Origin: a phage
NCBI GenBank assembly: GCA_014437165.1
Contig: GCA_014437165.1_4090.3
Reading direction: 5' to 3' (one strand)
DNA: 64,000 bases
Position 1 is the stretch's first letter. Each line of letters begins with the position of its first letter. Shown piece after piece: positions 31,224-41,590 of this stretch. A program made the position numbers and the translations under genes. The notes beneath the pieces were generated by a model. That model had not been told where the DNA came from. It searched no databases and was given only the letters and a program-made list of their open reading frames with translations.

Positions 31224-31368
31224 TTGCAAACTATGTTTAAAGGCGTATAATGTTTTACATCAGGACGGGGAATGAATAAGTAACTCCCCGTTAAGTAGCC
31301 CAGGAGTAAGGCACACGAAAAACTCCCCTGATAAAATAGTTTGACAATTGTTTTTAAAAGCGTATAAT
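31224..31368 (+). promoter_or_regulatory. tandem-promoter cassette with conserved ~90-nt structured leader
   Basis: P1 TTGCAA 31224-31229/TATAAT 31246-31251; hairpin ACGGGGA..TCCCCGT; P2 TTGACA 31341-31346/TATAAT 31363-31368; near-identical copy at 41447-41590. Confidence 0.6.
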
Positions 31369-31400
31369 ACTTACATCAACTACTGAATGAGGGTTACAAA

Positions 31401-32012
31401 ATGAAAACTATCACTACTACTACTTATGTTATGGCTTTTTCTGAATTGAACGCAGAACAACAAACGTCAGCTATCGAACTGGTTCGGGATCGGGAACGTT
31501 CAAGCGGTGATGATTTCTTTTCTGAGTCAGTGATCGAGTACTATAAAGAAACAGTACTACCAGAATATGGAATTGATGACGCTGATTTGCAATTCAGTGG
31601 TTTTTGGTCGCAGGGTGACGGTGCATCAATCAGTACTGACCACGTTGACGCAGTGAAGTTTTTACGCAAGGTAAGAGCATTAACTAAGTATCGCTCAATC
31701 CGTCACCTGCTGAATGAAGATGATTTGGCGATGAGTGTAAAGCGTTCTCACTCCCACTACTCGCATGAGAACACTGTAAGCGGGTACATTGAATCGGCTT
31801 ACACTGATTTAACCGCAAAACAAGAAACGTTAGTTAATGAGCTTGAGGAACTACTCACTGATACTATTCGTGAATTATCCCGCAAGTTGTACCGTGATTT
31901 AGAGAATGCATATGAGGATCAATTCACTACTGAAAACATTACGGCACTGATTGAGGGTAACGAATATCAATTCAATGTTATTGATGGCGTAGTAGAATCA
32001 ATCGAATATTAA
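31401..32012 (+). CDS. hypothetical protein
   Basis: RBS GAGGG; 203 aa. Confidence 0.65.
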   Translation: MKTITTTTYVMAFSELNAEQQTSAIELVRDRERSSGDDFFSESVIEYYKETVLPEYGIDDADLQFSGFWSQGDGASISTDHVDAVKFLRKVRALTKYRSIRHLLNEDDLAMSVKRSHSHYSHENTVSGYIESAYTDLTAKQETLVNELEELLTDTIRELSRKLYRDLENAYEDQFTTENITALIEGNEYQFNVIDGVVESIEY

Positions 32013-32024
32013 TTCAAAAAGTAC

Positions 32025-32084
32025 TTGCAAACTAAGTTTAAAAGCGTATAATACTTTATATCGAGGCGGGGAATGGTTCCCCGC
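32025..32084 (+). promoter_or_regulatory. promoter + leader-hairpin cassette
   Basis: TTGCAA 32025-32030, 16 nt, TATAAT 32047-32052; hairpin GCGGGGAA-TGG-TTCCCCGC 32066-32084. Confidence 0.7.
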
Positions 32085-32105
32085 TCACACTAAAAGGGCA
32101 ACAAA

Positions 32106-32372
32106 ATGAAAACTTTAAATATCACAACTGCACATCAATTGGTTCGGGATGCAATGGATCATGTGCAAGATTTCTTCCCTGATGTAAGTGTCGTAACTTA
32201 TGAAAAAGGTACTTGGACTTATTCAACAATTAATGGTTATGAGCCTGATTTTGATGACCTGGAAGAAATGGAATTTAATTTTGATCTGCTGAATGATGCC
32301 GCCCGTGAAGTTGAAAACGATGTTCAATACATTGATGGAGTAGTCGCACCTGATGCAGTAAAAGGATTATAA
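32106..32372 (+). CDS. hypothetical protein
   Basis: RBS AAGGG; 88 aa, acidic. Confidence 0.65.
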   Translation: MKTLNITTAHQLVRDAMDHVQDFFPDVSVVTYEKGTWTYSTINGYEPDFDDLEEMEFNFDLLNDAAREVENDVQYIDGVVAPDAVKGL

Positions 32373-32386
32373 AATTTAAAAAGTAC

Positions 32387-32448
32387 TTGCATTGTAGTTA
32401 GATTAACGTATAATACTTTATATCGAGGCGGGAGAATGGTTCTCCCGC
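32387..32448 (+). promoter_or_regulatory. promoter + leader-hairpin cassette
   Basis: TTGCAT 32387-32392, 16 nt, TATAAT 32409-32414; hairpin GCGGGAGAA-TGG-TTCTCCCGC 32428-32448. Confidence 0.7.
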
Positions 32449-32470
32449 TCAATCAAACGAGGATTTAAAA

Positions 32471-32710
32471 ATGGCTAGTACTAAATCTTACAACGGTCAC
32501 AAAAACAAAACTCATTGGAATGTTTCATTGTGGATTAATAACGATGAGTCATTGTACCGGATCGCTCAACGTTGGATCGCACAAAGTAGTACTAAAGATT
32601 ATGCTGCTGAATGTATGTACCGCGAATTAAAAGCAAACGGTACTACTACAACGCCGGACGGATTCAAGTATAGCACTACTGCGATCCGTGCTGCAATGGT
32701 TGGAATGTAA
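32471..32710 (+). CDS. hypothetical protein; paralog of 30071-30310
   Basis: RBS GAGGA; shares most positions with 30071 product. Confidence 0.7.
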   Translation: MASTKSYNGHKNKTHWNVSLWINNDESLYRIAQRWIAQSSTKDYAAECMYRELKANGTTTTPDGFKYSTTAIRAAMVGM

Positions 32711-32729
32711 CATTCAGTACTGAATCAAT

Positions 32730-32752
32730 GGCGGGGATTGGTTCCCGCCTTT
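32730..32752 (+). terminator. hairpin with short U-tract (weak terminator/attenuator)
   Basis: GGCGGGGA-TTGG-TTCCCGCC followed by TTT. Confidence 0.4.
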
Positions 32753-32767
32753 ACTGAGGATTATCTA

Positions 32768-33052
32768 ATGAGCAAAGTAATTAACTATACAGTACTAAGT
32801 AAATCATTATCTATCAGCCATTGCACCGATGGTTATTGGCTTTATGATGAAACACGCGGCATGAATTTAGCTATGCAGGAGAAAACTACAGATGCGGCAT
32901 ATCTTAAAGCACTGGAATACTACCAGAAGCGATTAAAGGAAGTAGAAAACGATTATAATAACCTGAAAGCGAAAGTAGATCATTTCGTCGGTCAATTCGT
33001 TGACGATGACGAGGACGGGCACTACTGCGACCGTTGCGGATCTTACAGTTAA
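32768..33052 (+). CDS. hypothetical protein
   Basis: ATG 32768 (MSKVINY..) after CTGAGGATTATCTA; C-terminal CDRCG. Confidence 0.55.
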   Translation: MSKVINYTVLSKSLSISHCTDGYWLYDETRGMNLAMQEKTTDAAYLKALEYYQKRLKEVENDYNNLKAKVDHFVGQFVDDDEDGHYCDRCGSYS

Positions 33053-33069
33053 GTACTGAGGATTATCTA

Positions 33070-33273
33070 ATGAGTGATTTAATTGAACGTATCAAAGAGC
33101 TTGAAGAAAAAGAATTACAGTTAATCGGCTTACAGAATAAAGTATTCCATGATTTAGGTGGCTTTATTAATGCCTGGGATAGTGGCGATCCTGAAGCGTT
33201 ACCTGCTAACCGCCAGGCAATGATCAATGATGTGCGTGATGTCTTTGAGTATGTTTTAAAGCAATTAAATTAA
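33070..33273 (+). CDS. hypothetical protein (coiled-coil-like)
   Basis: ATG 33070 (MSDLIERIKELEEKEL..) preceded by the same CTGAGGATTATCTA context. Confidence 0.55.
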   Translation: MSDLIERIKELEEKELQLIGLQNKVFHDLGGFINAWDSGDPEALPANRQAMINDVRDVFEYVLKQLN

Positions 33274-40319: not shown

Positions 40320-40322
40320 TAC

Positions 40323-40380
40323 TTGCATTTAGTTTTCAGTACTGTTATAGTACTTACATCAAGGGGAAACATCTTCCCCT
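40323..40380 (+). promoter_or_regulatory. promoter + leader-hairpin cassette
   Basis: TTGCAT 40323-40328, 17 nt, TATAGT 40346-40351; hairpin AGGGGAA-ACATC-TTCCCCT 40362-40380. Confidence 0.6.
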
Positions 40381-40397
40381 ACTAAGAGGAAATAAAA

Positions 40398-40586
40398 ATG
40401 GAAAACTTATCAAGTATTTTAGTACAAGATGATTTCGGTAATCCTGGAAGTGCTATCATTGTTCGGGGTAATAAAGCAACGTTTGTTATTGCTGGTGGAC
40501 CTGTACAGCGTAGCATTAAAAATAATGCTGTTACCATTAATAATGTACGCTATCGCTTAGATAAAGAATTGATTCATAAACTTTAA
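40398..40586 (+). CDS. hypothetical protein
   Basis: RBS AAGAGGAAA; 62 aa. Confidence 0.6.
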   Translation: MENLSSILVQDDFGNPGSAIIVRGNKATFVIAGGPVQRSIKNNAVTINNVRYRLDKELIHKL

Positions 40587-40593
40587 AAAGTAT

Positions 40594-40654
40594 TTGACAA
40601 TAGATTATAGTACTGTATAATAAGTTACATGAAGGGGAGAAATGATTCTCCCCA
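40594..40654 (+). promoter_or_regulatory. promoter + leader-hairpin cassette (duplicate of 38209-38268)
   Basis: TTGACA 40594-40599, 16 nt, TATAAT 40616-40621; hairpin GGGGAGAA-ATGA-TTCTCCCC 40634-40654. Confidence 0.7.
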
Positions 40655-40670
40655 CTAAGAGGAAAGAAAA

Positions 40671-40883
40671 ATGCAAGGTCAACTAATCGTTCGTAAATGG
40701 TCTGATACTAACGAAAAACCGTGGGATGTACAATACATCGGACCGGATGGGGTATCACGTTATCAGCCTGGCGTAACGCATAGTACTGAGCAATTTGCCA
40801 ACGCTCACCGCGAACGCCTGTTAGAATCCATGAAACAGGGATTCTGTGAAAAATTCATTCAAGATCATTGGCTGAAAGATTAA
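40671..40883 (+). CDS. hypothetical protein
   Basis: RBS AAGAGGAAAG; 70 aa. Confidence 0.65.
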   Translation: MQGQLIVRKWSDTNEKPWDVQYIGPDGVSRYQPGVTHSTEQFANAHRERLLESMKQGFCEKFIQDHWLKD

Positions 40884-40900
40884 TATAAGGAGTACAGCTT

Positions 40901-40993
40901 ATGCAAATGAATCCGATGATTATTGTTTTAGCTGTACTTATGATCATTCATGCAATAGTAGAAGTATTAACGCAATCAGGAGTAATAAAATGA
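40901..40993 (+). CDS. candidate 30-aa hydrophobic micropeptide
   Basis: RBS AAGGAG 8 nt upstream of ATG 40901; MQMNPMIIVLAVLMIIHAIVEVL.. Confidence 0.35.
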   Translation: MQMNPMIIVLAVLMIIHAIVEVLTQSGVIK

Positions 40994-41163
40994 TCCAAGT
41001 AGAATTATCAGTACTGAAAGATCTGTTTTATCGGTTAGGTACTAATGGCGAGTATCCTAAAAGTGATACCGCAAAACTTTTTGTATCACTCGACTTATGG
41101 CAACGCGAACAATTAGTAATGTCCTGGCGTAAAGGTAAAGAAGATAGCGAGGTGAAAGCATGA
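40990..41163 (+). CDS. small hypothetical protein (57 aa)
   Basis: ATGA overlap; contains RLGTNGEY, a weak echo of the LGTNYQ family. Confidence 0.35.
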   Translation: MIQVELSVLKDLFYRLGTNGEYPKSDTAKLFVSLDLWQREQLVMSWRKGKEDSEVKA

Positions 41164-41309
41164 AAGAATTCTTATTCGAAGTAGTGTTTCAAGGTGTCGG
41201 TAGCAACCAACTGATTCGCTCAAGTGGTTACAATGTTAACCAGGCATGGAATAACATTAAACAAATGTACCCGAACGCTATCACCTATCGCAACCCGAAA
41301 CAAGTTTAA
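41160..41309 (+). CDS. small hypothetical protein (49 aa)
   Basis: ATGA overlap with previous; terminator follows. Confidence 0.35.
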   Translation: MKEFLFEVVFQGVGSNQLIRSSGYNVNQAWNNIKQMYPNAITYRNPKQV

Positions 41310-41323
41310 AAATAATTGAAAAA

Positions 41324-41348
41324 GGGATTGACTCCGGTCAGTCCCTTT
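41324..41348 (+). terminator. rho-independent terminator / PeSL-like cassette
   Basis: GGGATTGAC-TCCG-GTCAGTCCC + TTT, then TATTAT. Confidence 0.7.
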
Positions 41349-41446
41349 GCTATTATATACGCATAGAAACAAATCAGCCCACAGGGTGCATAAATGTATC
41401 TATTGTTTGCTGGTGGCTAGTACTGAAAACTATTTTTAAAAAGTAC

Positions 41447-41590
41447 TTGCATTGTACTTAGAATCAAGTATAATATTTTACATCAGGACGGGGAACGAAA
41501 CAAGTAACCCCGTTAAGTAGTCCAGGAGTAAGACATAAGAAAACCTCCCCTGATAAAATAGTTTGACAATAGAAAGTAAACGAGTATAAT
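41447..41590 (+). promoter_or_regulatory. tandem-promoter cassette with conserved structured leader (copy of 31224-31368)
   Basis: P1 TTGCAT 41447-41452/TATAAT 41469-41474; hairpin ACGGGG..CCCCGT 41488-41513; P2 TTGACA 41563-41568/TATAAT 41585-41590. Confidence 0.6.

What the first reader, a model, noticed from the sequence alone, without database searches (positions are those of the whole stretch)
31224..41590. Conserved ~90-nt structured leader between two tandem promoters, present in two near-identical copies and one diverged copy
31224-31368 and 41447-41590 share promoter P1, then ACATCAGGACGGGGAA..AACTCCCCGTTAAGTAG.CCAGGAGTAAG..CCTCCCCTGATAAAATAG, then promoter P2 (TTGACA..TATAAT) and a gene. 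34547-34690 has a related leader. The P1 transcript could be a small regulatory RNA ending near P2, or a long structured 5' UTR giving two-promoter control.
Basis: inference. Interest (0 to 1): 0.6.

Follow-up and report, generated by a model that had tools for sequence, protein, structure and literature searches.

The report
Conserved pseudoknot RNA in phage early leaders
The leader between the tandem promoters belongs to an apparently undescribed, phage-only family of folded RNAs (a hairpin plus a pseudoknot) that also sits between the classic A1 and A2 early promoters of phage T7, so a well-studied model phage may carry an overlooked RNA element whose function is still unknown.

Summary
The window is the terminal-repeat early region of a 121Q/PBECO4-type jumbo coliphage. 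It holds exactly three copies of the leader (31257-31340, 41480-41562, diverged 34580-34643), each starting at a strong sigma-70 promoter.

The leader is not a local oddity. Its 36-40 nt core (UAAGUAG...UAAG...ACGAAAAA) recurs about 20-60 nt downstream of an early host-type promoter in T7, T3-like, K1F, Drulisvirus and LIMElight podoviruses (583 GenBank records). It also occurs in other jumbo phages, Justusliebigvirus and Vequintavirinae, usually followed by a second promoter. In T7 it lies between A1 and A2.

Across 32 distinct cores, two interleaved helices are paired in 99.7% of cells. One pair shows all four Watson-Crick types and three others show double changes. This supports an H-type pseudoknot, preceded by a variable hairpin.

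The motif matches no Rfam family and was not found in cellular genomes. It is not similar to HK022 put, and no terminator follows it.

Function is inferred only. I favour a 5'-terminal RNA domain, recognised by a conserved host factor, that sets the fate of P1 transcripts. A put-like polymerase modifier and a trans-acting decoy are live rivals. T7 lacking the region is viable in the laboratory.

The parts
31224..31251 (+). Copy 1 promoter P1 (TTGCAA-16-TATAAT) with an A/T-rich upstream element at 31203-31223
31257..31340 (+). Copy 1 leader RNA. Outer stem AUCAGG 31259-31264 / CCUGAU 31327-31332. Hairpin A is ACGGGGA 31265-31271 / UCCCCGU 31285-31291.
   Evidence: MFE fold, z = -2.9; consensus fold of 7 relatives
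31292..31326 (+). Copy 1 pseudoknot core. UAA 31292-94; S1 5' GUAGCC 31295-31300; S2 5' GGAG 31303-06; UAA 31307-09; S1 3' GGC 31310-12 plus AC 31315-16; A-rich loop GAAAAA 31317-22; S2 3' CUCC 31323-26.
   Evidence: CM hit of 49.8 bits; pair counts
31341..31368 (+). Copy 1 promoter P2 (TTGACA-16-TATAAT, 12/12). Its transcript lacks any 5' structure.
31401..32012 (+). Gene downstream of copy 1 (203 aa, phrog_5162, unknown function)
41447..41474 (+). Copy 2 promoter P1 (TTGCAT-16-TATAAT), about 100 nt after terminator 41321-41348
41480..41562 (+). Copy 2 leader RNA. Outer stem 41482-41487 / 41549-41554. Hairpin A is 41488-41493 / 41508-41513.
   Evidence: MFE fold, z = -2.4
41514..41548 (+). 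Copy 2 pseudoknot core. S1 5' GUAGUC 41517-22; S2 5' GGAG 41525-28; S1 3' GAC 41532-34 (plus AA 41537-38, one G-A mismatch); loop GAAAAC 41539-44; S2 3' CUCC 41545-48.
   Evidence: CM hit of 47.3 bits
41563..41590 (+). Copy 2 promoter P2 (TTGACA-16-TATAAT, 12/12)
41624..41899 (+). Gene downstream of copy 2 (91 aa, phrog_14947, unknown function). The same leader+P2+gene module occurs in Justusliebigvirus muut.
34547..34574 (+). Copy 3 promoter P1 (TTGACA-16-TAGAAT), about 60 nt after terminator 34467-34488
34580..34643 (+). Copy 3 leader. It has no hairpin A. A possible outer stem is AUC 34582-84 + GACG 34587-90 with CGUC 34637-40 + GAU 34641-43; this was seen by eye and is not in the MFE fold.
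   Evidence: (z = -0.25)
34599..34633 (+). Copy 3 pseudoknot core. UAA 34599-601; S1 5' GUAGAC 34602-07; S2 5' CCAG 34610-13; UAA 34614-16; S1 3' GUC 34617-19 plus AC 34622-23; GAAAAA 34624-29; S2 3' CUGG 34630-33. This is the copy closest to the T7-group version.
   Evidence: CM hit of 52.9 bits; blastn to phiA1122 553-587
34698..35180 (+). Gene downstream of copy 3 (160 aa, phrog_27871, unknown function), followed at once by terminator 35202-35223

Best explanation
WHAT IT IS (shown). Each leader is a compact folded RNA made from the upstream promoter of a tandem pair of host-type (sigma-70) early promoters. It lies in the long terminal repeat of a 121Q/PBECO4-like jumbo coliphage.

Its conserved core is UAA-GUAGNC-NN-[4 nt]-(N)UAA-GNC-NN-AC-GAAAAA-[4 nt]. 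The core forms two interleaved helices, S1 and S2, that is, an H-type pseudoknot with an A-rich third loop. A variable hairpin A usually abuts its 5' side. In the jumbo-phage versions an outer stem pairs transcript positions +3 to +8 with the sequence just after the knot.

The same core, in the same place, occurs in T7 (between A1 and A2) and in hundreds of other enterobacterial phages. It was not found in cellular genomes.

HOW IT WORKS (inferred). The element acts as RNA, on the + strand. It forms the 5'-terminal domain of P1 transcripts and is recognised by a conserved host component. I think the most likely role is in cis: sequestering the 5' end and presenting an obstacle or binding site that changes decay or processing of P1 transcripts. 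P2 transcripts of the same gene lack it. This gives two mRNA classes from one gene module.

My sub-confidences are:
- real conserved RNA structure homologous to the T7 A1 leader: about 0.9
- RNA-level function of some kind: about 0.8
- this particular cis 5'-domain mechanism: about 0.35
For: Identity of the window and location:
- The window is 90-97% identical to vB_Ec-M-J, 121Q and PBECO4.
- All three copies map inside the 21.5-kb direct terminal repeat of vB_Ec-M-J.

Distribution:
- The copy-1-type leader occurs in 45 phage records, including Justusliebigvirus and Vequintavirinae, with P1-leader-P2 retained.
- The copy-3 core hits phiA1122 at 553-587.
- The phiA1122 leader hits 583 records, mostly Autographiviridae of Enterobacterales.
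- Instances were read directly in T7, phiYeO3-12, K1F, KPV811, LIMElight, Munch and Hallingskeid.
- The T7 record annotates A1 at 498 and A2 at 626, bracketing the core at 551-586.

Structure:
- 32 distinct cores were chosen by covariance-model score. True hits score at least 42.6 bits and chance hits at most 22.4.
- 99.7% of cells are paired, against 84% in shuffles (0/500) and 13-37% when partners are slid.
- S1 pair 10/23 is AU 23, UA 5, CG 3, GC 1. S1 pair 6/28 is GC 27, GU 4.
- Three of the four S2 pairs show double changes.
- G-U pairs fit the + strand only.
- Hairpin A abuts the core in 32 of 35 contexts, with at least 10 different stem sequences; mean stem length is 4.5 against 1.6 in shuffles.

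Architecture:
- The core begins 24-62 nt after the -10 element of a sigma-70 promoter, and a second promoter follows.
- The 5' end is paired in the MFE folds of copies 1 and 2.
- 24 of 36 neighbouring early promoters carry a simple 5' hairpin at the same position, so a 5'-terminal structure is the local design rule.
- Copy 3 is a cassette bounded by identical terminators, meaning an mRNA with structured 5' and 3' ends.
Against: - No experiment bears on function.
- S1 is short (3 + 2 pairs around an internal mismatch). The A8-U26 pair I first proposed fails in 7 of 22 sequences.
- The loop between the helices is 3-4 nt, which is long for a classical H-type knot.
- S1 and S2 could instead be alternative, mutually exclusive folds. 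No pseudoknot energy was computed.
- My first filter for true instances required S2 complementarity, and the covariance model treats S2 as pairs. S2's 100% pairing is therefore partly built in. S1 was never selected for.
- Cell counts are not independent events, because much of the spread reflects recent exchange of early cassettes (about 90% identity between Asteriusvirus and Justusliebigvirus).
- A plain hairpin suffices as a 5' stabiliser. The near-invariant 36 nt therefore call for a more specific partner, which I cannot name.
- Copy 3 and Hallingskeid lack hairpin A, and copy 3's fold is no better than shuffles (z = -0.25).
- T7 with A0-A3 and genes 0.3-0.7 replaced by a synthetic promoter plaques like wild type on E. 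coli 10G (bioRxiv 10.1101/2021.08.23.457391). Any function is therefore accessory.
Confidence: 0.45

Rival explanations
1. Put-like polymerase modifier. The nascent leader binds the elongating host RNA polymerase that made it and makes it faster or terminator-resistant. P1-initiated polymerases would then read through downstream signals, while P2-initiated ones would not.
For: - The position is as for HK022 putL: immediately downstream of an early sigma-70 promoter, about 70-85 nt, multi-helix, with an A-rich strand that could form a minor-groove triplex (PMC9378689).
- It occurs only in phages that depend on host polymerase for early transcription, with Enterobacterales hosts.
- T7-group leaders also carry boxA, and in metagenomic contig L054 the motif lies about 20 nt upstream of boxA with no P2.
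- This reading would explain why P1 and P2 coexist.
Against: - There is no sequence similarity to HK022. The best covariance-model hit in the whole genome is 10.7 bits, inside a tail gene.
- Copy 3 is a single-gene cassette with a strong terminator right after the gene (35202-35223), which would be pointless if the polymerase were terminator-proof.
- Almost every gene in the array has its own promoter.
- I found no convincing -10-like pause element.
Confidence: 0.2
2. Trans-acting early small RNA or decoy. P1 exists to produce the folded RNA itself. The RNA is released by processing and titrates or mimics a target of a conserved host protein, or of a defence system.
For: - P1's only unique product is the leader.
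- A separate promoter for the gene follows in nearly all lineages, at a variable distance of 2 to about 48 nt.
- There are three copies per terminal repeat, hence six per genome.
- The jumbo-phage version is a closed, self-contained domain.
- Single-stranded positions are invariant (UAA twice, GAAA).
- It is dispensable in a defence-poor laboratory strain, as anti-defence functions are.
Against: - No terminator or recognisable processing site defines a 3' end.
- In T7 the A1 transcript is known to continue through the early operon.
- No target is identifiable. There is no complementarity or similarity to E. coli rRNA beyond chance and no match in 5,426 E. coli genomes.
Confidence: 0.2
3. DNA-level promoter element. 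The conserved sequence is an upstream (UP-like) element or protein-binding site that boosts P2/A2, not an RNA.
For: - In T7-group phages the AAAAAC of the core lies at -46 to -41 of A2, where a proximal UP subsite would sit.
- A2 and A3 share this upstream stretch in degenerate form.
Against: - The distance from the core to the next -35 varies from 2 to about 48 nt. L054 has no P2 and copy 3 has only a degenerate one.
- Compensatory changes in two interleaved helices, with G-U pairs valid on one strand only, are a signature of RNA.
Confidence: 0.05
4. Decayed gene cassette. P1 + 5' hairpin + a remnant ribosome-binding site (CCAGGAG) of a lost small gene, duplicated by recombination, with no function of its own.
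For: - The early array is built of stereotyped promoter-hairpin-RBS-ORF cassettes.
- CCAGGAG resembles the RBS region of the cassette at 46262.
Against: - The 'RBS' is helix S2. It is CCUG, CCAG or CUUG in other phages, always with a matching partner.
- The core is nearly invariant across phage families whose flanks are unalignable.
- The only ORF in the leader, ATGAATAAGTAA in copy 1, is absent from copy 2.
Confidence: 0.05

Closest known systems
Phage T7 early promoter region A1-A2-A3 (and its T3/phiYeO3-12/K1F counterparts)
   Same: This is true homology. The window's core aligns base for base with T7 551-586, which lies between the annotated A1 (498) and A2 (626) starts. In both, a strong sigma-70 promoter lies upstream and another downstream. 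The T7 A1 transcript start AUCGAGAGGGA also resembles the window's ACAUCGAGAGGGG starts.
   Different: In T7 the region is known only as promoters. I found no description of an RNA motif there: Rfam has none, and a full-text search for the sequence returned only template listings. T7 has two extra 5' hairpins, the knot abuts the A2 -35 element, and boxA plus an RNase III site follow. The jumbo-phage version is closed by a 5'/3' outer stem and heads single small genes.
HK022 put RNAs (putL/putR), cis-acting antiterminator RNAs
   Same: Both are phage-encoded, about 70-85 nt, multi-helix RNAs lying directly downstream of an early sigma-70 promoter. Neither needs a phage protein. An A-rich strand is compatible with a triplex (PMC9378689).
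   Different: There is no sequence or covariance-model similarity. The topology differs: a pseudoknot against two stem-loops. The activity is untested here. The terminator after copy 3's gene argues against processive antitermination.
T4 gene 32 mRNA 5' pseudoknot (translational operator)
   Same: Both are H-type pseudoknots at the 5' end of a phage mRNA leader, recognised through structure.
   Different: The T4 element belongs to one gene and is bound by that gene's own product. Here the downstream genes differ (phrog_5162, 14947, 27871), and the motif moves together with the promoter module, not with a gene.
5'-terminal stem-loop mRNA stabilisers (ompA-type; protection from 5'-end-dependent RNase E/RppH attack)
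   Same: Both are structures starting within a few nucleotides of the 5' end. The neighbouring cassettes use plain hairpins at the same position.
   Different: Stabilisers need no specific sequence. This core is nearly invariant over 36 nt across phage families.
Type III antitoxin RNAs (ToxI-like 36-nt pseudoknots) and phage pseudo-antitoxins
   Same: Both are about 36-nt RNA pseudoknots that a phage could use against a host factor.
   Different: There are no tandem repeats, no similarity to ToxI as I recall its sequence, and no toxin partner. The very broad distribution argues for a core host target rather than a sporadic defence system. This is a resemblance only and was not tested.

Membership tests
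UAAGUAG leader pseudoknot family (defined here; type example T7 551-586) | Core sequence UAAGUAG-N8-9-UAAG-N5-(A/C)GAAA scoring high with the family covariance model | tested here: met
   The three window copies score 52.9, 49.8 and 47.3 bits. Background in the window is at most 8.3 bits.
UAAGUAG leader pseudoknot family (defined here; type example T7 551-586) | Helices S1 and S2 both able to pair | tested here: met
   All S2 pairs and the three lower S1 pairs are Watson-Crick in all three copies. Copy 2 has one G-A mismatch at the top of S1.
UAAGUAG leader pseudoknot family (defined here; type example T7 551-586) | Lies 20-60 nt downstream of a sigma-70-type early promoter, on the same strand | tested here: met
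   The distance from the -10 element to the core is 40, 39 and 24 nt in the window, and 35-62 nt elsewhere.
UAAGUAG leader pseudoknot family (defined here; type example T7 551-586) | Hairpin A abutting the 5' UAA | tested here: inconclusive
   Present in copies 1 and 2 (7- and 6-bp stems) and in 32 of 35 contexts overall. Absent in copy 3 and in Hallingskeid.
HK022 put antiterminator RNA | Sequence/structure similarity to putL or putR | tested here: not met
   Model R1 run on the whole HK022 genome gives a best hit of 10.7 bits in a tail gene. The reverse test, a put model run on the window, was not possible.
HK022 put antiterminator RNA | Located just downstream of an early sigma-70 promoter | tested here: met
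   PMC9378689
HK022 put antiterminator RNA | Suppresses termination and pausing in cis through the beta' zinc-binding domain | not testable with these tools
   Needs transcription assays.
Any Rfam 15 family (including ribozymes, riboswitches, r-protein leaders) | Score at or near a family's gathering threshold | tested here: not met
   No gathering-level hit in the window. The only hit with E below 10 near copy 1 is Methylobacterium-1 at 18.8 bits against a threshold of 40. There was nothing at E of 1 or below in five homologous loci.
Independent small-RNA gene (promoter to intrinsic terminator) | Intrinsic terminator at the 3' end of the ~90-nt unit | tested here: not met
   No terminator-like site is predicted in 31257-31345, 34580-34690 or 41480-41565.
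UP element of the downstream promoter | Fixed position (-38 to -59) relative to the -35 hexamer | tested here: not met
   The -35 element starts 37 to 85 nt after the first U of the core. It is absent in L054.
16S rRNA mimic | Similarity to rRNA beyond chance | tested here: not met
   A 15/17 match to 16S 863-879 exists, but 5-39% of shuffled queries score as well against the rrnH operon.

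The most novel reading that the evidence does not exclude
The motif is a second, independently evolved class of phage RNA that binds and reprograms a core host machine directly after infection. The target could be the elongating RNA polymerase (put-like), or the RNase E/degradosome or ribosome. It would be carried by T7 itself and by jumbo, rV5-like and phAPEC8-like coliphages, and spread as part of a mobile 'P1-knot-P2' promoter module.
Probability: 0.25. Interest if true: 0.85.

Novelty: new variant of a known kind. Interest (0 to 1): 0.7.

Why it matters
T7 and its A1 promoter are among the most used objects in molecular biology. A covariation-supported pseudoknot sitting unnoticed in the A1 transcript, and shared with unrelated jumbo phages, would be a new handle on how phages treat their very first transcripts.

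It would also give a rationale for the long-known but unexplained tandem arrangement of strong early promoters. It is immediately testable in T7 with compensatory mutants.

Practically, many in vitro transcription templates and expression constructs that carry the 'T7 A1 promoter' plus downstream sequence may include this RNA element.

Tried and rejected
1. Decayed cassette with a remnant RBS. Rejected: the 'RBS' is a covarying helix.
2. Leader peptide. Rejected: the only ORF (M-N-K, 31273-31284) is not conserved in copy 2.
3. UP element of P2. Rejected as the main explanation: the spacing varies.
4. Hammerhead or another known ribozyme or riboswitch. The order of helices does not fit, and Rfam gives nothing.
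5. 16S rRNA mimicry (helix 26a/27 region). The match is real but at chance level.
6. Homology to HK022 put. None found.
7. Host homologue. blastn against 5,426 E. coli genomes found nothing. A pattern scan of 185,579 species genomes gave one true hit, a 2.7-kb T7-like contig binned into a MAG.
8. First IMG/VR pattern (it required GTAAG). It returned only chance hits, so I replaced it with looser anchors.
9. A sixth S1 pair (A8-U26). Dropped: it is unpaired in 7 of 22 sequences. One pair count was run with a mis-registered bracket string and repeated.
10. Literature. No paper in the searchable library describes the motif. A 2023 catalogue of about 10,000 unnamed phage RNA candidates could contain it, and I could not check that.
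11. Functions of the downstream genes. All are unknown.

Full report
**Context.** The 11 kb around the finding is 90-97% identical to the jumbo coliphages vB_Ec-M-J, 121Q and PBECO4 (genus Asteriusvirus). By homology to vB_Ec-M-J, window positions from about 27.9 kb to 49 kb correspond to its annotated 21.5-kb direct terminal repeat. The three leaders map to repeat positions of about 3.7, 6.7 and 14.2 kb. The region is a one-directional array of very small genes. Nearly every gene has its own near-consensus sigma-70 promoter of a stereotyped build: AAAAAGTAC, then TTGCAA or TTGACA, 16 bp, TATAAT, then a gTTTTACATC start. In 24 of the 36 plus-strand promoters between 28 and 49 kb, the transcript begins with a stable G-rich hairpin at about +7 (consensus GGGGAGAA-AUGG-UUCUCCCC, -10 to -17 kcal/mol).

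**The observation.** The two long copies are 88% identical over the leader and 81% over the whole P1-to-P2 module. Probes from the leader occur 2-6 times, against 0.00-0.07 expected. A covariance model of the core, run without filters, finds exactly three sites in the window: 34597-34635, 31290-31328 and 41512-41550, at 47-53 bits. The next best hit scores 8 bits. The shared TACATC start and the first G-rich stem are generic to the promoter family. The part specific to these three leaders is the sequence that follows.

**The family is much wider than the window.**
- The copy-1-type leader occurs in 45 GenBank phage records. Besides Asteriusvirus, these include Justusliebigvirus (outra, muut, EmilieFrey) and a Vequintavirinae phage (A7_1), always as P1-leader-P2.
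- The core of copy 3 unexpectedly matched T7-like Yersinia phages at positions 553-587.
- Reading the loci shows one 36-40 nt core, UAAGUAGACAGCCUG(A)UAAGUCAUACGAAAAACAGG. I found it in T7, phiA1122, phiYeO3-12, K1F, Klebsiella Drulisvirus KPV811, Pantoea LIMElight, the Salmonella jumbo phage Munch and the Erwinia jumbo phage Hallingskeid.
- In the annotated T7 record the core (551-586) lies between the A1 start (498) and the A2 start (626).
- A blastn search with the phiA1122 leader finds 583 records, nearly all phages of Enterobacterales.
- In every lineage read, the core starts 24-62 nt after the -10 element of a sigma-70-type promoter. A second promoter usually follows, at a variable distance: its -35 starts 37-85 nt after the first U of the core.
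- The finding's 'P1-leader-P2' is therefore the jumbo-phage counterpart of T7's A1-A2 arrangement.

**Structure.** Copies 1 and 2 fold alone into a closed three-way junction: an outer stem AUCAGG/CCUGAU that pairs +3 to +8, hairpin A, and a third helix (z = -2.9 and -2.4). Within the close copy-1 family there is no variation to test this, but across families there is.

I collected cores with anchor patterns that leave the stem positions free, from IMG/VR, metagenomes and species genomes. I kept those the covariance model scores at 42.6 bits or more; chance matches score 22.4 or less. This gave 32 distinct sequences. Two interleaved helices fit them:
- S1: GUAGNC with GNC..AC.
- S2: the 4 nt after the 2-nt linker that follows S1, paired with the 4 nt after GAAAAA.

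Pairing statistics:
- 99.7% of cells are standard pairs, against 84% in column shuffles (0 of 500 reach it) and 13-37% when partners are slid.
- The middle S1 pair takes all four Watson-Crick forms (AU 23, UA 5, CG 3, GC 1) and is never unpaired.
- The top S1 pair is GC 27, GU 4.
- Three S2 pairs show double changes (CCUG/CAGG, CCAG/CUGG, GGAG/CUCC, CUUG/CAAG, plus one U-G).

The variants occur in unrelated backgrounds. For example, U-A occurs in two podovirus contigs and in the myovirus copies, so they reflect several independent events. The G-U pairs make sense only on the plus strand.

A hairpin directly abutting the 5' UAA is present in 32 of 35 distinct contexts, with at least ten different stem sequences (mean stem 4.5 bp against 1.6 in shuffles).

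The simplest reading is hairpin A followed by an H-type pseudoknot. Loop 1 is 2 nt, the invariant UAA forms the inter-helix loop, and the A-rich GAAAAA loop lies along S1.

**Caveats on the structure.**
- S1 is short and interrupted.
- A sixth S1 pair I first drew is not supported.
- My initial filter and the covariance model both favour S2 pairing, so only S1 is a fully independent test.
- No pseudoknot energy was computed, and S1 and S2 could be alternative folds.

**What it is not.**
- No Rfam family matches, at gathering or permissive thresholds.
- There is no intrinsic terminator in or after the leaders, so a discrete sRNA gene is not indicated.
- The GGAG that looks like a ribosome-binding site is helix S2, and the only mini-ORF is not conserved.
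- The variable distance to P2, and its absence in contig L054 where boxA follows instead, argue against a pure upstream promoter element. In T7-like phages the AAAAAC does coincide with the UP position of A2.
- A resemblance to 16S rRNA 863-879 (15/17) is no better than shuffles.
- HK022, the phage with the put antiterminator RNAs, has no match.
- The motif is absent from 5,426 E. coli genomes by blastn. In 185,579 species-representative genomes it occurs only on one small T7-like contig. On these searches it is restricted to phages.

**Function (inferred).** The near-invariance of 36 nt is striking. KPV811 and phiYeO3-12 have identical cores with unalignable flanks. Together with the restriction to phages of Enterobacterales and the absence of any shared phage protein, this points to recognition by a conserved host component at the RNA level.

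The motif travels with the promoter module, not with a gene. The downstream genes belong to three different families of unknown function, and the same leader+P2 heads different genes in outra and muut.

In the jumbo phage it occupies the place where neighbouring cassettes have a plain 5' hairpin. Its outer stem sequesters the 5' end. Copy 3 is a one-gene cassette bounded by identical terminators (34467-34488 and 35202-35223).

I therefore favour a cis-acting 5'-terminal domain that alters decay or processing of P1 transcripts, with P2 supplying unmarked transcripts (about 0.35).

A put-like action on the elongating polymerase is attractive for T7, which has a long untranslated leader, boxA nearby and transcription-driven genome entry. 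It fits poorly with the terminator right after copy 3's gene (about 0.2).

A trans-acting decoy RNA is equally possible (about 0.2). P1's only unique product is the leader, there are six copies per genome, and a T7 derivative lacking A0-A3 and genes 0.3-0.7 plaques normally on a laboratory strain. That dispensability is the pattern expected of accessory host-takeover functions.

**Novelty.** The T7 promoters are textbook material. I found no description of an RNA motif between them. Rfam has none, a full-text search for the sequence returns only template listings, and the general searches found nothing. It may be hidden among unnamed candidates of large phage RNA surveys. I rate it as a new family within the known kind 'structured RNA in phage early leaders', with moderate-to-high interest. 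The reasons are the quality of the covariation, the breadth of distribution, its presence in T7 and its immediate testability.

Noticed in passing
window 28288-48134, + strand (e.g. 29991-30060, 33282-33350, 38209-38280, 45219-45290): 24 of 36 early promoters are followed at about +7 by a near-identical G-rich 5' hairpin (GGGGAGAA-AUGG-UUCUCCCC, -10 to -17 kcal/mol), then an RBS and a tiny ORF. The stem sequence is conserved well beyond what a generic stabiliser would need, which suggests a binding site for a phage or host factor.
   Followed up: partly
window + 39315-39400, + 31007-31090, + 41328-41410; - 33715-33630, - 31179-31095, - 29294-29210, - 29079-28995: A second repeated unit: a promoter (TTGACA-17-(C/T)ATAAT, often TG-extended) followed by about 55 nt with no ORF. 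Consensus is AUCAAGACGAGAnnGUCnCUAACCCAnnGGGUGCAuAnaUGUAnCU. It has a covarying first hairpin (GACG/CGUC, GUC/GAC, CGC/GCG) and an ACCC-NNN-GGGU triloop hairpin. One or two copies lie immediately upstream of leader copies 1 and 2, and the same neighbourhood is seen in Salmonella phage Munch (L004 3170-3260). These are candidate small RNAs or replication/packaging signals.
   Followed up: partly
window 34467-34488 and 35202-35223: Two identical intrinsic terminators (AGCCCACCTTAAACAGTGGGCT + T-run) bracket the copy-3 promoter-leader-gene unit. It looks like an insulated, possibly mobile, one-gene cassette.
   Followed up: no
window 41321-41356, 37633-37668, 44784-44819: Terminator hairpins whose loop and 3' arm contain the -35 element of a promoter (AAAGGGATTGACTCCGGTCAGTCCCTTT GCTATTAT). 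They form a compact terminator-promoter composite repeated at least three times.
   Followed up: no
window ~27855 (inferred) to ~49400: By homology to vB_Ec-M-J, the left physical end of the genome and the start of a ~21.5-kb direct terminal repeat should lie near 27.9 kb. All plus-strand early promoters point inward from that end.
   Followed up: partly
L003 660-700 (phiA1122) and the same place in T7 (L016): The sequence upstream of promoter A3 (CACATAAGGTGAAACAAACGG-TTGACAACATGAAGTAA) is a degenerate copy of the 3' half of the motif plus A2. A2 and A3 therefore arose by a duplication that included part of the knot.
   Followed up: no
L054 4060-4180 (IMG/VR contig 2030936005_000003): A single promoter, then the motif, then a perfect boxA (CGCTCTTTAACAA) about 20 nt later, with no second promoter. 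This is the only context seen where the knot directly precedes a Nus-factor site.
   Followed up: no
window 41447-41899 versus L002 (phage muut) 1470-1924: Leader, P2 and the downstream 91-aa gene are shared at about 90% nucleotide identity between a jumbo Asteriusvirus and a 146-kb Justusliebigvirus. This points to recent exchange of early-gene cassettes between unrelated myoviruses.
   Followed up: partly
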